Of a stretch of DNA of 13,925 nucleotides, positions 334 through 2,454 are shown in pieces. The notes beneath the pieces were generated by a model. The model saw nothing but the letters and a program-made list of their open reading frames with translations. It made no database searches and was not told the DNA's origin. Origin of the DNA: a virus; the IMG/VR virus record IMGVR_UViG_3300027824_000187; one strand, written 5' to 3'. A program made the translations under genes and the position numbers. Every line of letters begins with the position of its first letter. The stretch's first letter is position 1.

Positions 334-779
334 TGTTTTTGGAAAGTGTCAAAATAGGTCGGGTAAGGATCGCCGGGTATCTCGGTCACACGCTCTATCA
401 TTTGGTGGAAGCGCGGAGGGCAATCGGCATCGGTGTACTTGCGATCTCGTTGATGAGTTTGTTCTCGGTCGGTGCGGCTCGCGGTGTGCGAACGTTTCTC
501 AACTGGGAAGCCCAGTCTCCTATTGCAAAGGACGCTTGGGTGGTTGAAAACACTCACGCTGAGGCTCGTGATCTGGTAGTCCGACGCGGTACCACGCATC
601 TCCGGCTGCACTGCACAGGTGACATCGAGTGGAGTGACTACTGGAAGCATCTGGATCACGGCTATGGTTGTCTCCCGGTGAAAGAGGGTCAGGAAATTCT
701 CTTGGAACATTGGGACAACGACTACGTGCTCAAGTTGGATAAGGGGCAGGAGAACACCTACCATGAAGGTAGCTGGTGA
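333..779 (+). CDS. Hypothetical protein. The start is uncertain, with alternatives ATG 291 or GTG 540.
   Basis: ATG 333 overlaps the upstream stop (TGATG). The C-terminal half (GDIEWSDYWKHLDHGYGCLPVKEGQEILLEHWDNDYVLKLDKGQ) looks coding. The N-terminal half has weak codon bias. AAAGGA lies 7 nt before GTG 540. Confidence 0.45.
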   Translation: MFLESVKIGRVRIAGYLGHTLYHLVEARRAIGIGVLAISLMSLFSVGAARGVRTFLNWEAQSPIAKDAWVVENTHAEARDLVVRRGTTHLRLHCTGDIEWSDYWKHLDHGYGCLPVKEGQEILLEHWDNDYVLKLDKGQENTYHEGSW

Positions 780-1111
780 CTCGCGTAGTTCACGTCCGTA
801 AAGCAGAATTCGACATCTACATCGGGCGGGCGATCAAAGAGTTTGCTGAGTCGCCTTGGCACAACCCTTTTCACATTGAGTACGGCTGCGGACGAGACTG
901 CGTGCTGGAGAAATACGAAGTGCATGTCCGTAACAGCCCGGAACTGATGGCGCGTCTGGGCGAGCTTCGCAACAAGACGCTGGGTTGCTGGTGCAAAGAC
1001 AAACACGGCGCGGGGAAGAAATGCCACGGGGATGTCCTCGTGAAGTTAGTGAGAGAGGTTTATGCTGATCCTGAAGATGCGGTGCAGCAAGCACCCAAAC
1101 TACAAAGCTAA
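776..1111 (+). CDS. DUF4326-family protein, a widespread small phage/plasmid domain.
   Basis: GTG 776 overlaps the previous stop (GTGA). Motifs: YIGR near the N-terminus, NPF, and LGCWCKDKHGAGKKCHGDVLVKL, which matches the DUF4326 signature (GCWC...CHGDVL) as I recall it. Confidence 0.7.
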   Translation: MTRVVHVRKAEFDIYIGRAIKEFAESPWHNPFHIEYGCGRDCVLEKYEVHVRNSPELMARLGELRNKTLGCWCKDKHGAGKKCHGDVLVKLVREVYADPEDAVQQAPKLQS

Positions 1112-1265: not shown

Positions 1266-1402
1266 CGCAGAAGATTGAAAAATGGCGCTTCGGTTTTCGT
1301 AAGGATTTCATGCTGAATCTCGGTCATGAATACTACGACGGCGACATGTACTACCTGAATCTGGGCTGGTTCTGGGTCAACTACAAACCGTGGGGATGGT
1401 AA
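1262..1402 (+). CDS. 46-aa Trp/Tyr-rich peptide (MTQKIEKWRFGFRKDFMLNLGHEYYDGDMYYLNLGWFWVNYKPWGW). It is below the ORF-track size cutoff.
   Basis: ATG 1262 overlaps the upstream stop (ATGA), and TAA is at 1400-1402. The frame is clean, read by hand from the sequence. Confidence 0.45.
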   Translation: MTQKIEKWRFGFRKDFMLNLGHEYYDGDMYYLNLGWFWVNYKPWGW

Positions 1403-1563
1403 TGGCAACTCTCAAAGAACAACTGATGGCGCTGCTAGTTTGCAATCAGTGTGGCGCACCAGTTGAGTTCGACAAGCAAGACAAAGTTTACCGACACAAA
1501 GAGCCTCTGGATCGTCACTGCAAACAGAACGGCTACCCGGTAACTCCCAAAGTGAAATCCTAA
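1402..1563 (+). CDS. 53-aa zinc-ribbon-like peptide (CNQCG...DRHC). It is below the ORF-track size cutoff.
   Basis: ATG 1402 overlaps TAA (TAATG), and the stop is TAA 1561-1563. Translation: MATLKEQLMALLVCNQCGAPVEFDKQDKVYRHKEPLDRHCKQNGYPVTPKVKS. Confidence 0.5.
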   Translation: MATLKEQLMALLVCNQCGAPVEFDKQDKVYRHKEPLDRHCKQNGYPVTPKVKS

Positions 1564-1590: not shown

Positions 1591-1725
1591 ATGTCCAACA
1601 TTGGTGAGCCGCAAAGGGTCATCATTTCCGAACCCCTGTCCGATCCGGTACCTCATGAGGTGCCCATAGAGCAGCCTGTCTCCGAACCAGTTCCAGAGCG
1701 CGAGCCGGAGAAGGTTCCCGCATGA
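1591..1725 (+). CDS. 44-aa Pro/Glu-rich peptide (MSNIGEPQRVIISEPLSDPVPHEVPIEQPVSEPVPEREPEKVPA).
   Basis: Near-consensus SD TAGGAGG lies 6 nt before ATG 1591. The stop TGA 1723-1725 overlaps the next start (ATGA). Confidence 0.5.
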   Translation: MSNIGEPQRVIISEPLSDPVPHEVPIEQPVSEPVPEREPEKVPA

Positions 1726-2264
1726 GCGACTCTTGGCTGCATCCTTACGAAGACAATCTCCCATCAGACATGATCATTTCCCCGGTGACGGCGTATCGCA
1801 TCTGGTACGTTCCGCTCCAGCCGATCCTCCAGCTTCGTTCTTACTGGATACAGACTCCGTGGGAGCCGTGCCAGAAGCTCGAAGCGGAATGCCGCAACCA
1901 CATGTCGTGTGTTTGCGCCGGAGAATTCTGGACGAGCACCAAGCGCGAACCCGAAGAGGCGTTCACCTGTTCATGCAGCGCCGGAATCTATGGCTGGAAA
2001 ACATTCGATCAAGGTTTCGAGATGTACATCGACGAAATCGAAAAGATGCGTTGCTGCAATCCAGAGGAGCCGATCACAAATCGTGTGGCATTCGGCAAGG
2101 TCTATCTCTGGGGCAGAGTCATCGAATGCGAAAAAGGATTTCGGGGTCTCTACGCTTACCCATCCGGCATCTACTACACCGCCAACAACTCCCCGGCGCT
2201 CGCGTCCATGTACCGCGTGCCTTTACTCGCGCTCAAGGACCATCATGCCAATCATCCGCATTGA
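1722..2264 (+). CDS. Hypothetical 180-aa protein with several Cys/His clusters (CQKLEAECRNHMSCVCAGEF...CSCSAG...CCNPEE).
   Basis: ATG 1722 is coupled to the upstream stop. The overlapping alternative frames (1733..2407, 1909..2244) are Arg/Ser-rich shadows typical of wrong frames in high-GC DNA. Confidence 0.55.
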   Translation: MSDSWLHPYEDNLPSDMIISPVTAYRIWYVPLQPILQLRSYWIQTPWEPCQKLEAECRNHMSCVCAGEFWTSTKREPEEAFTCSCSAGIYGWKTFDQGFEMYIDEIEKMRCCNPEEPITNRVAFGKVYLWGRVIECEKGFRGLYAYPSGIYYTANNSPALASMYRVPLLALKDHHANHPH

Positions 2265-2454
2265 CAACCCTGAGGTGTTCGTCGGCATGGACGCGACGAA
2301 AGCCCAGCGCGAGATCAAGGATCGCGGCTACGACTGCCGCATCGTGTGGGTCGAGGGGCGCACCATTGTGCCGGACTACAAGCCGGACTATGACCCACTG
2401 CGCGTGAACTTGCACGTCAAATCAGCCAAGGTTACCAAAGCTACCATAGGCTAA
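2245..2454 (+). CDS. 69-aa small protein resembling the peptidase inhibitor I78 / potato inhibitor I fold family.
   Basis: AAGGA lies 5 nt before ATG 2245. The residue pattern is G-x-D-A-T-x-A-x-x-E-I...R-I-V-W-V-E-G-x-x-V-P-D-Y-K-P-D-Y-D-P-L-R-V-N-L...G. It follows the I78 consensus (G...A...I...RV..PG..VT.DYRPDRLNV...G). This rests on memory of the family and is not a computed hit. Confidence 0.45.
   Translation: MPIIRIDNPEVFVGMDATKAQREIKDRGYDCRIVWVEGRTIVPDYKPDYDPLRVNLHVKSAKVTKATIG

What the first reader, a model, noticed from the sequence alone, without database searches (positions are those of the whole stretch)
2245..2454. Possible I78 / potato-inhibitor-I-like serine protease inhibitor encoded by the element
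The 69-aa product has the compact pattern of this inhibitor fold (G..A...I...R.V...G..V..DY.PDRL.V.....V..V..G). A mobile-element-encoded protease inhibitor could block a host protease, such as Lon or ClpP adaptors or a defence-associated protease. That would be a plausible anti-defence or host-takeover function.
Basis: partly seen in the sequence, partly recalled or inferred. Interest (0 to 1): 0.5.

Follow-up and report, generated by a model that had tools for sequence, protein, structure and literature searches.

The report
Huge-phage CI-2-fold protease-inhibitor-like protein
This small gene from a very large bacteriophage encodes a real, conserved 69-residue protein with the fold of the classic plant and leech serine-protease inhibitors (CI-2, eglin c), but its protease-binding loop is remodelled, so whether it inhibits a protease, and which one, is still untested.

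Summary
The ORF at 2245-2454 (+) is a real gene. It encodes 69 aa, has an AAGGA ribosome-binding site, shows dN/dS 0.10-0.23 against homologs, and is called identically in five assemblies.

- A template-free AlphaFold model (pLDDT 84) has potato-inhibitor-I (I13) proteins or the I78 inhibitor AFUEI as all 50 of its best PDB matches.
- The family profile reaches bacterial I13/I78-like domains (hhalign 99.75%), and those reach CI-2 (91%).
- An iterated profile puts 26 I13 structures at the top of the PDB list.

It is not a member of either curated family. PF00280 scores 17.1 bits against a 24.5 cutoff, and PF11720 gives no hit.

The loop keeps the P1' Asp and P6' Arg at I13 spacing. It lacks the P2 Thr and P8' Arg, is about two residues longer, and has Pro at the inferred P1.

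The clade is leaderless and single-domain. It is known only from viral and metagenomic contigs, including 463- and 465-kb genomes, and lies in a block of small same-strand genes near DUF4326. No protease is nearby.

Most likely it is a cytoplasmic, substrate-like serine-protease inhibitor whose target is unknown. The anti-defence role is untested. This is a new variant of a known kind, of moderate interest.

The parts
2245..2454 (+). CDS of the 69-aa CI-2-fold protein (stop codon included)
   Evidence: Translation. 16 homologs at 57-100% identity, all 69-73 aa. dN/dS 0.10-0.23. Same gene called in five assemblies. AF2 pLDDT 84.1. Foldseek top 50 are all I13/I78 inhibitors.
2235..2239 (+). Shine-Dalgarno-like AAGGA, 5 nt upstream of the ATG; lies inside the 3' end of the upstream gene
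   Evidence: Read directly from the sequence.
2293..2322 (+). Residues 17-26: the single alpha-helix of the fold. It follows the conserved xVGm motif (G14) and contains the nearly invariant A20.
   Evidence: DSSP on the model gives H17-26. G14, A20 and R32 are >=90% conserved across 114 domains. This matches alpha1 (residues 18-28) of the 69-aa inhibitor rBTI (PMC3115953).
2359..2400 (+). Residues 39-52: exposed loop between strands E30-36 and E53-59, the counterpart of the I13 protease-binding loop. Inferred positions are P2 = K46, P1 = P47, P1' = D48.
   Evidence: pLDDT falls to 67 for residues 41-50. The register comes from the family-wide alignments. Residues 42-47 vary in sequence and length among homologs, while 48-52 are invariant. 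The rBTI binding loop is residues 39-50.
2386..2412 (+). Residues 48-56, DYDPLRVNL: the invariant signature of the phage-type clade. D48 = P1' (CI-2 Glu60), R53 = P6' (CI-2 Arg65), N55 = P8' (CI-2 Arg67).
   Evidence: Invariant in 16/16 close homologs. D48 and R53 are >=90% conserved in 114 domains. Aligned to CI-2 EYRIDRVRL and BGIT DFRCDRVRV.
2371..2394 (+). Imperfect 12-nt tandem repeat, CCGGACTACAAG / CCGGACTATGAC (9 of 12 identical), encoding PDYK-PDYD within the loop. Possible origin of the loop extension.
   Evidence: Inference only: shorter relatives already carry KPDYD.
1722..2264 (+). Context: upstream 180-aa Cys-rich gene that overlaps the inhibitor-like gene by 20 nt. A lineage-specific neighbour, not a recognisable protease.
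   Evidence: 31 homologs with no Pfam domain. Present in L001 (84% identity), L002 (76%) and L009, but absent upstream of the homolog in L003 and L005. AF2 pLDDT 74.9. No PDB fold match: best E 1.6, TM <=0.24.
776..1111 (+). Context: DUF4326 gene, the most constant neighbour of the family, about 1 kb upstream.
   Evidence: PF14216, E 1.1e-20. A ~98-aa family at about -1 kb recurs in 15 loci, and Pfam labels it DUF4326 in L001, L002, L005 and L024. PMC7824862 predicts an enzymatic domain linked to NAD+/ADPr conflict systems.

Best explanation
The gene encodes a leaderless, single-domain, disulfide-free protein of the CI-2 / potato-inhibitor-I / I78 superfamily, carried by a lineage of huge (~460 kb) phages.

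Shown: it is a real gene under purifying selection; it has the CI-2 fold; it is homologous to bacterial I13/I78-like domains and, through them, to CI-2.

Inferred: it is made in the infected cell's cytoplasm and works as those inhibitors do. The exposed loop (residues 39-52) would dock like a substrate into the active-site cleft of a serine endopeptidase of the chymotrypsin (S1) or subtilisin (S8) type. The scaffold would hold the loop rigid through the P1' Asp48 and P6' Arg53, so the protease is blocked rather than completing cleavage.

The specificity residue is uncertain. The family-wide register puts Pro47 at P1 and the conserved Lys46 at P2. The sister subclade has Lys or Arg directly at P1, which would suit a trypsin-like target.

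The target is unknown. A host intracellular S1/S8 protease, possibly one that belongs to an anti-phage system, is the most attractive candidate, but this is pure inference.

Approximate confidences: fold and homology about 0.9; acts as a protease inhibitor about 0.5; target is defence-related about 0.2.
For: Real gene.

Fold:
- AF2 without templates gives pLDDT 84.1 with helix 17-26, strand 30-36, loop, then strands 53-59 and 62-68. This matches rBTI, which has alpha1 at 18-28, beta1 at 30-38, the binding loop at 39-50 and beta2 at 51-56 (PMC3115953).
- All 50 best Foldseek PDB matches are CI-2, eglin c, BTI, BGIT, HPI, ATSI, DCHP or AFUEI, with probability up to 1.0 and TM 0.53-0.67.

Homology:
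- PF00280 is the only Pfam hit (E 0.009, near full length).
- hhalign of the family against CI-2 gives E 1.8e-4, or E 4.2e-5 with the wider phage clade.
- An exhaustive profile search finds 107 representatives at E<=1e-3. Single-domain relatives among them sit just under the PF00280 cutoff with full-length coverage, for example P0042 at 24.3 bits against 24.5, E 5e-5.
- Phage clade against bacterial domains: 99.75%, E 3e-27. Bacterial domains against CI-2: 91%, E 1e-6.
- The iterated profile ranks 26 I13 structures first in PDB (BGIT E 9e-4, CI-2 E 2.4e-3), with AFUEI at E 0.077.

Inhibitor-like loop:
- D48 and R53 are invariant and spaced exactly as P1' and P6' in I13.
- The non-primed side varies in sequence and length, as contact residues of canonical inhibitors do.
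- The sister subclade reads [VIL]-[KR]-DYDPLR, parallel to the BGIT reactive site T-K-DFRCDR.
- rBTI remains a 2.7 nM inhibitor with Pro at P2 and Trp at P8', so losing the P2 Thr and P8' Arg does not rule out inhibition.

Bacterial relatives keep the canonical signature: P2 Thr in 95 of 103 domains and a hypervariable P1.

Phage context: 463-kb IMG/VR genome; 465-kb contig; the vault-like neighbour is 42% identical to proteins of the 462-kb and 735-kb huge phages; absent from 185,579 species genomes.
Against: - No biochemical evidence, and no target was identified.
- It fails both curated family thresholds.
- Two of the four positions that PMC3115953 names as conserved for the loop-scaffold hydrogen-bond network are changed. 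P2 is Lys, with no Thr at this position in 36 phage-clade sequences, and P8' is Asn rather than Arg or Trp.
- P3' is Asp instead of Arg.
- The inferred P1 in this protein's subclade is Pro (also A, S, V or N in relatives), which is a poor P1 for most S1/S8 proteases.
- The loop is about 2 residues longer than in the bacterial relatives (about 4 longer than in CI-2), and some homologs have further 4-residue insertions.
- The most strongly conserved feature is the DYDPLRVNL block, which could equally be a binding surface for a non-protease partner.
- No protease gene recurs near the gene in 21 loci.
- The strongest Pfam E-values among distant relatives are inflated by summing over tandem repeats.
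Confidence: 0.5

Rival explanations
1. The scaffold is retained but the function has changed. The phage clade keeps the CI-2 fold but no longer inhibits proteases, and the invariant DYDPLRVNL surface and loop bind some other host or phage protein, as a small adaptor or decoy.
For: - The P2 Thr is lost throughout the clade (0 of 36) while 95 of 103 bacterial relatives keep it. P8' is Asn, P3' is Asp, and the inferred P1 is Pro.
- The loop carries indels.
- The primed-side block is strictly invariant.
- No protease lies in the neighbourhood.
- The gene sits among fast-evolving small genes of unknown function.
Against: - The two network residues that matter most for hydrolysis resistance in I13 (P1' acidic and P6' Arg) are invariant and correctly spaced.
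- rBTI shows that P2 and P8' can vary while nanomolar inhibition is kept.
- The sister subclade has a textbook K/R-D reactive-site dipeptide.
Confidence: 0.3
2. It is a genuine protease inhibitor, but it serves the phage's own biology rather than host takeover. It might restrain a phage-encoded protease until assembly, or protect virions and proteins from extracellular or periplasmic proteases around the time of lysis.
For: The fold and loop evidence is the same as for the main explanation. Huge phages encode many enzymes, and only about 20 kb of each ~460-kb genome could be read here.
Against: - There is no signal peptide, so no route to the periplasm before lysis.
- Known phage prohead proteases do not belong to the S1/S8 families that this inhibitor class targets (established knowledge).
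- No protease gene lies within +/-5 kb in any of the 21 loci, or among the Pfam-annotated genes of L001, L002 and L005 apart from a SprT-like metalloprotease about 9 kb away.
Confidence: 0.12
3. It is a PASTA-like or other generic small alpha/beta domain, and the match to inhibitors is a coincidence of a simple fold.
For: Sub-threshold PASTA hits appear in one member of the close family and a few distant relatives, covering the N-terminal xVGxxxxxA helix region only.
Against: - The PASTA matches cover only about profile positions 5-42 and never the C-terminal half.
- No PASTA structure appears among the top 50 Foldseek matches, which are all I13 or I78.
- The iterated profile aligns in register through the loop and the following strand of CI-2 and BGIT.
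Confidence: 0.03

Closest known systems
Potato inhibitor I family (MEROPS I13, Pfam PF00280): CI-2, eglin c, BGIT, CMTI-V, LUTI, rBTI
   Same: - Size (64-70 aa) and order of elements: N-terminal xVG, one helix, a strand, a long exposed loop, then two strands.
- No stabilising disulfide, as in CI-2 and eglin c. The single Cys31 is not conserved.
- No signal peptide.
- P1' acidic (D48) and P6' Arg (R53) are conserved at identical spacing.
- It is the only Pfam family hit and provides the top PDB matches by both fold and iterated profile.
   Different: - The score is below the Pfam gathering cutoff (17.1 against 24.5 bits).
- P2 is Lys, not Thr. P8' is Asn, not Arg or Trp. P3' is Asp, not Arg.
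- The loop is about 4 residues longer than in CI-2.
- The inferred P1 is Pro.
- There is an extra N-terminal MPIIRID segment.
- It is encoded by a phage rather than a plant, leech or bacterium.
Peptidase inhibitor I78 family (Pfam PF11720; prototype AFUEI, the Aspergillus fumigatus elastase inhibitor) and related bacterial tandem-repeat secreted proteins
   Same: - Same fold class: AFUEI is among the Foldseek matches (rank 48, TM 0.53) and is found by the iterated profile (E 0.077).
- The strand motif R-[VIL]-N-[LI] (R53-V54-N55-L56), with Asn at P8', is shared with the bacterial domains that score on PF11720, such as P0032 and P0045.
- hhalign against that bacterial set gives 99.75%.
   Different: - PF11720 gives no hit for the window protein or any close homolog.
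- The bacterial relatives are secreted proteins or lipoproteins, often with 2-5 tandem copies, and have T-x-DYRPDR loops.
- The phage clade is leaderless and single-domain and has x-K-x-DYDPLR.
Known phage-encoded protease inhibitors (T4 PinA against Lon; lambda cIII against FtsH). These are recalled from established literature and were not checked here.
   Same: The concept is the same: a small phage protein that blocks a host protease during infection.
   Different: Those have unrelated folds and mechanisms and act on ATP-dependent proteases. Nothing of the CI-2 / Laskowski type was found in the jumbo-phage survey PMC7824862 or in the main text of the EVADES anti-defence catalogue, nor in full-text searches.

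Membership tests
Potato inhibitor I (I13, PF00280) | Scores at or above the Pfam gathering threshold (24.5 bits) | tested here: not met
   17.1 bits, E 0.0092, profile positions 5-59 of 64. Six of 16 close homologs hit it, all sub-threshold.
Potato inhibitor I (I13, PF00280) | CI-2 fold: one helix packed on a small sheet, with a long exposed binding loop between two strands | tested here: met
   AF2 pLDDT 84.1 with elements H17-26, E30-36, loop, E53-59 and E62-68. Foldseek top 50 are all I13 or I78, TM 0.53-0.67, probability up to 1.0. The layout matches rBTI.
Potato inhibitor I (I13, PF00280) | Conserved P1' acidic residue and P6' Arg in the loop-scaffold hydrogen-bond network (PMC3115953) | tested here: met
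   D48 and R53 are invariant in the family and >=90% conserved in 114 domains. They align to CI-2 E60 and R65 and to BGIT D and R.
Potato inhibitor I (I13, PF00280) | Conserved P2 Thr and P8' Arg (or Trp) (PMC3115953) | tested here: not met
   P2-equivalent is K46 and P8'-equivalent is N55. No Thr occurs at P2 in 36 phage-clade sequences, against 95 of 103 in bacterial relatives. rBTI (P2 Pro, P8' Trp) shows that exceptions can still inhibit.
Potato inhibitor I (I13, PF00280) | Tight, substrate-like inhibition of S1 or S8 serine proteases | not testable with these tools
   Needs protein expression and enzyme kinetics. No complex-prediction tool was available.
Peptidase inhibitor I78 (PF11720) | Match to the PF11720 profile | tested here: not met
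   No hit at E<=10 for the window protein and none among the 16 close homologs at E<=1. Only distant multi-repeat relatives score, with summed scores.
Peptidase inhibitor I78 (PF11720) | Structural similarity to the prototype AFUEI (PDB 3w0d) | tested here: inconclusive
   Foldseek rank 48, E 0.48, probability 0.51, TM 0.53. Iterated profile E 0.077. This is weaker than the match to I13 members.
CI-2 superfamily (I13 plus I78-like domains; the grouping as one Pfam clan is recalled from memory) | Statistically supported homology to member domains | tested here: met
   - A1 profile against 1.84 billion proteins: 107 hits at E<=1e-3, with I78/I13-like bacterial domains down to E 2.4e-23.
- hhalign, phage clade against bacterial domains: 99.75%.
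- hhalign, bacterial domains against CI-2: 91%, E 1e-6.
- hhalign, phage clade against CI-2: 70%, E 4e-5.
PASTA domain (PF03793) | Full-length match to the PASTA profile or fold | tested here: not met
   Only sub-threshold hits restricted to the N-terminal part. No PASTA structure is in the Foldseek top 50.

The most novel reading that the evidence does not exclude
This is the founding example of a phage-encoded canonical (Laskowski-type) serine-protease inhibitor. It would be a leaderless CI-2-fold protein that huge phages express in the host cytoplasm to neutralise an S1/S8-type protease needed for host immunity, for example a protease that activates or executes an abortive-infection response. 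Its remodelled K-x-DYDPLR loop would be tuned to that target.
Probability: 0.15. Interest if true: 0.75.

Novelty: new variant of a known kind. Interest (0 to 1): 0.45.

Why it matters
Canonical serine-protease inhibitors of the CI-2 and eglin type are textbook proteins of plants, leeches, fungi and bacteria. I found no described phage example in full-text searches, in a 224-genome jumbo-phage survey, or in the main text of a catalogue of 268 anti-defence proteins.

If this clade inhibits a host protease, three things follow:
- It would add a new mechanistic class to phage counter-defence.
- It would point to a serine protease as a relevant barrier to huge-phage infection.
- It would provide a 69-residue, disulfide-free scaffold with an unusual extended loop for inhibitor engineering.

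If it does not inhibit proteases, it is an example of the CI-2 scaffold being reused for another binding function.

The claim is cheap to test, because the protein is small and soluble-looking and standard protease panels exist.

Tried and rejected
1. I78 membership. PF11720 gave no hit.
2. PHROGs. No family matched the 69-aa protein even at E<=10.
3. Direct sequence search of PDB with the single protein found nothing. With the 16-member profile, CI-2 appeared only at E about 0.9. The link became significant only with the wider profile.
4. The overlapping upstream 180-aa gene as a cognate protease or obligate partner. Rejected: no Pfam or PHROG hit; no PDB sequence hit apart from a weak zinc-finger match; no fold match, best TM 0.24; absent from L003 and L005; present in only 4 of 21 loci.
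5. A recurring protease gene in the neighbourhood. None was found in 21 loci within +/-5 kb or in the Pfam labels of L001, L002, L005, L023 and L024.
6. PASTA-like reading. Rejected.
7. The strong Pfam E-values for distant relatives turned out to be sums over tandem repeats. The same proteins also hit unrelated families, so I discounted these values.
8. Homologs in deposited phage genomes: none by tblastn, and no nucleotide match for the whole window. Homologs in 185,579 species genomes: none.
9. The promoter and terminator scan around the gene found nothing above background.
10. An alternative loop register with P43|D44 as the scissile bond. Rejected because it would put Tyr49 rather than Arg at P6'. 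The family-wide alignments place D48 at P1'.
Full report
THE OBSERVATION

Window 2245-2454 (+) is an ATG-initiated ORF of 69 codons plus a stop. It encodes MPIIRIDNPEVFVGMDATKAQREIKDRGYDCRIVWVEGRTIVPDYKPDYDPLRVNLHVKSAKVTKATIG. An AAGGA Shine-Dalgarno lies 5 nt upstream, at 2235-2239. The start overlaps the end of an upstream 180-aa gene (1722-2264) by 20 nt.

A word-indexed search of 5.8 billion proteins found 16 relatives at 57-100% identity. All are 69-73 aa, all start with M-[PS]-I-[IVE]-R-I, and all are from metagenomes. Pairwise dN/dS among the window and two homologous loci is 0.10-0.23. Independent gene calls in five assemblies from at least four samples give the same product. This is a real protein-coding gene.

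The resemblance it pointed to is nevertheless real, as shown next.

WHAT IT IS: FOLD AND HOMOLOGY

- **Pfam.** The only match is the potato inhibitor I family, PF00280, with E 0.0092 and 17.1 bits against a gathering cutoff of 24.5. It covers profile positions 5-59 of 64. Six of the 16 homologs give the same sub-threshold hit. PF11720 (I78) gives none. PHROGs has nothing.
- **Structure.** A template-free AlphaFold2 model built on the 16-sequence alignment is confident (mean pLDDT 84.1). It has a helix at 17-26, a strand at 30-36, a less confident loop (pLDDT 67 for residues 41-50), and strands at 53-59 and 62-68. This is almost residue for residue the layout of the 69-aa buckwheat inhibitor rBTI: helix 18-28, strand 30-38, binding loop 39-50, strand 51-56 (PMC3115953).
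- **Fold search.** All 50 best Foldseek matches in the PDB are I13 family members (CI-2 in many variants, eglin c, rBTI, BGIT, HPI, ATSI, DCHP) or the I78 inhibitor AFUEI. The best E is 0.01, probabilities reach 1.0, and TM scores are 0.53-0.67.
- **Exhaustive profile search.** An HMMER search of 1.84 billion representatives with the family profile found 107 proteins at library-wide E<=1e-3. Their domain alignment shows a continuum. It runs from the window's clade (TIVPDYKPDYDPLRVNL), through other leaderless single-domain proteins (xx[KR]DYDPLRVxL), to bacterial domains with the consensus T-x-DYRP[DG]R[IL]N[LF].
- **Profile-profile comparisons.**
  - Phage clade (36 sequences) against bacterial domains (106): 99.75% probability, E 3e-27.
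  - Bacterial domains against CI-2: 91%, E 1e-6.
  - Phage clade against CI-2: 70%, E 4e-5.
- **Iterated profile.** A 114-domain profile puts 26 I13 structures at the top of a search of all PDB sequences (BGIT E 9e-4, CI-2 E 2.4e-3, then CMTI-V, DCHP and LUTI). HPI (E 0.063) and AFUEI (E 0.077) follow a few places lower. All align in register.

One caution applies. The most impressive Pfam E-values among the distant relatives (1.9e-10 for PF00280 and 6.5e-9 for PF11720) come from proteins with three to five tandem copies, where weak per-repeat scores add up. The same proteins also 'hit' unrelated families. The reliable bridging evidence is the single-domain relatives just under threshold with full-length coverage: P0042 at 24.3 bits and E 5e-5, P0050 and P0044.

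Taken together, I put the assignment to the CI-2 / I13 / I78 superfamily at about 0.9. The protein is not a member of either curated family by their own thresholds.

THE LOOP

PMC3115953 states that P2, P1', P6' and P8' are the highly conserved positions of I13. They form the hydrogen-bond network that holds the binding loop rigid.

The family-wide alignments place D48 at P1' (CI-2 Glu60), R53 at P6' (CI-2 Arg65) and N55 at P8' (CI-2 Arg67). D48 and R53 are invariant in the close family and >=90% conserved across 114 domains.

The other two positions differ. P2 is Lys46 and P8' is Asn. In the bacterial relatives P2 is Thr in 95 of 103 domains and P1 is hypervariable (M, A, R, L, Q, D and others), which is the classic signature of canonical inhibitors. 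In the phage-type clade none of 36 sequences has Thr at P2.

Within the phage clade there are two loop types:
- [VILF]-[KR]-DYDPLR, with a basic residue at P1. This parallels the BGIT reactive site T-K-DFRCDR.
- K-x-DYDPLR, the window's own type, with x = P, A, S, V or N. Here the conserved Lys is at P2 and, in this protein, Pro is at P1.

The non-primed side (residues 42-47) varies in sequence and length, and two homologs carry 4-residue insertions. An imperfect 12-nt tandem repeat (2371-2394) encodes PDYK-PDYD.

rBTI shows that P2 and P8' can depart from Thr and Arg while nanomolar inhibition is kept: its P2 is Pro, its P8' is Trp, and its KD is 2.7 nM. The changes therefore weaken the case for inhibitor function but do not exclude it. 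Pro at P1 is the most awkward feature. The real P1 may be Lys46 if the longer loop bulges, and I could not resolve this without model coordinates or a complex prediction.

CONTEXT

The window is a run of small genes on the + strand, nearly all with no detectable family. Recognisable genes are:
- a DUF4326 gene at 776-1111;
- an AAA ATPase at 9470-10528;
- an 817-aa protein with major-vault-protein shoulder and repeat domains at 10582-13035.

Homologs of the inhibitor-like gene lie on a 465-kb JGI contig and a 463-kb IMG/VR viral genome (seen again as L013). The vault-like protein is 42% identical to proteins of the deposited 462-kb and 735-kb 'uncultured phage' genomes LR756500, LR756501 and LR756503. 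The carrier is therefore a huge phage.

The inhibitor-like gene itself has no homolog in 50,697 deposited phage records or in 185,579 species-representative bacterial and archaeal genomes.

A neighbour analysis of 21 loci shows a conserved syntenic block. The DUF4326 family recurs about 1 kb upstream in 15 loci, and several small families of unknown function recur on both sides. No protease-like family recurs.

The overlapping 180-aa upstream gene is present only in the closest relatives (4 loci) and is replaced by unrelated genes in L003 and L005. Its model (pLDDT 74.9) has no structural relative in the PDB. It is not a recognisable protease and not an obligate partner.

The jumbo-phage survey PMC7824862 predicts that DUF4326 is an enzymatic domain linked to NAD+/ADPr conflict systems. 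This is compatible with a host-interaction gene block but says nothing specific about this gene.

HOW IT MOST LIKELY WORKS

Shown: a conserved, leaderless, disulfide-free CI-2-fold protein with an exposed loop, and with the P1' and P6' anchor residues intact.

Inferred: it is made in the infected cytoplasm and binds a serine endopeptidase of the S1 or S8 type in a substrate-like way. These are the only families that I13 inhibitors are known to block (established knowledge).

The identity of the target, and any role in anti-defence, is unsupported by direct evidence. I put about 0.5 on protease inhibition and about 0.2 on a defence-related target.

The main rival (about 0.3) is that the scaffold has been repurposed, with the invariant DYDPLRVNL surface binding a non-protease partner. 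The lesser rivals are covered in the rival-explanations section.

NOVELTY AND SCORE

Foldseek against predicted viral structures finds similar folds only in 'Uncharacterized protein' entries. These come from uncultured Caudovirales (TM up to 0.82), giant viruses and the jumbo phage phiRSL1.

Full-text searches, the jumbo-phage survey and the main text of the EVADES catalogue of 268 anti-defence proteins describe no phage inhibitor of this class.

This is best described as a new variant of a known kind: a divergent, phage-restricted clade of the CI-2 superfamily with a remodelled loop. Interest is moderate (0.45). The fold call is solid and the biology would be fresh if confirmed, but the function rests on inference and the loop departs from the canonical pattern.

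Noticed in passing
window 10582-13035 (+), with the AAA ATPase at 9470-10528: An 817-aa protein matches major-vault-protein domains (MVP_shoulder E 5.4e-26, Vault_3 E 1.2e-10) and is preceded by an AAA ATPase. It is syntenic in L001 and L002 and 42% identical to proteins of the 462-kb and 735-kb huge phages LR756500, LR756501 and LR756503. A 2023 bioRxiv preprint (10.1101/2023.11.10.566534) already reports viral MVPs in gut phages.
   Followed up: partly
window 1722-2264 (+): A 180-aa Cys-rich protein overlaps the start of the inhibitor-like gene by 20 nt. It has invariant C57, C63, C65 and C85 plus GIYGW and G-x-V-x-LWG motifs. It has 31 homologs, no Pfam or PHROG family and no PDB fold match, so it is an orphan fold.
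   Followed up: yes
window 776-1111 (+): A DUF4326 gene (E 1.1e-20) is the most constant neighbour of the family, recurring in 15 loci. PMC7824862 predicts a link to NAD+/ADPr conflict systems.
   Followed up: partly
window 2371-2394 (+): An imperfect 12-nt tandem repeat, CCGGACTACAAG / CCGGACTATGAC, encodes PDYK-PDYD inside the putative binding loop. It may be a trace of loop extension by duplication.
   Followed up: partly
proteins P0021, P0030, P0032, P0045 (distant relatives, not in the window): Bacterial secreted proteins or lipoproteins carry 3-5 tandem copies of an I78/I13-like domain. In some it is fused to SLH, DUF4377 or META domains. Their summed repeat scores produce spurious Pfam hits to unrelated families.
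   Followed up: partly
BFVD entries A0A6J5KSP7, A0A8D9CCI0, A0A3G4ZN11, A0A3G5AD22, A0A2P1EME8 and B2ZYE5 (not in the window): CI-2-like folds occur in uncharacterised proteins of uncultured Caudovirales (TM 0.82), giant viruses (Terrestrivirus, Satyrvirus, Moumouvirus, Marseillevirus) and the jumbo phage phiRSL1. The fold may be more widespread in large viruses than current annotation suggests.
   Followed up: no
window 13095-13319 (+): A 74-aa ORF gives a sub-threshold match to the N-terminus of the nicotinamide mononucleotide transporter family (PF04973, 22.5 bits against 27.3). It may be a fragment or a chance match.
   Followed up: no
window 1390-1563 (+) and L003 9040-10001: Several of the small genes between DUF4326 and the inhibitor-like gene are CxxC-rich and look like zinc fingers. 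The window ORF gives a weak zf_C2H2_13 hit (E 0.0015), and the L003 ORFs carry multiple CxxC pairs.
   Followed up: no
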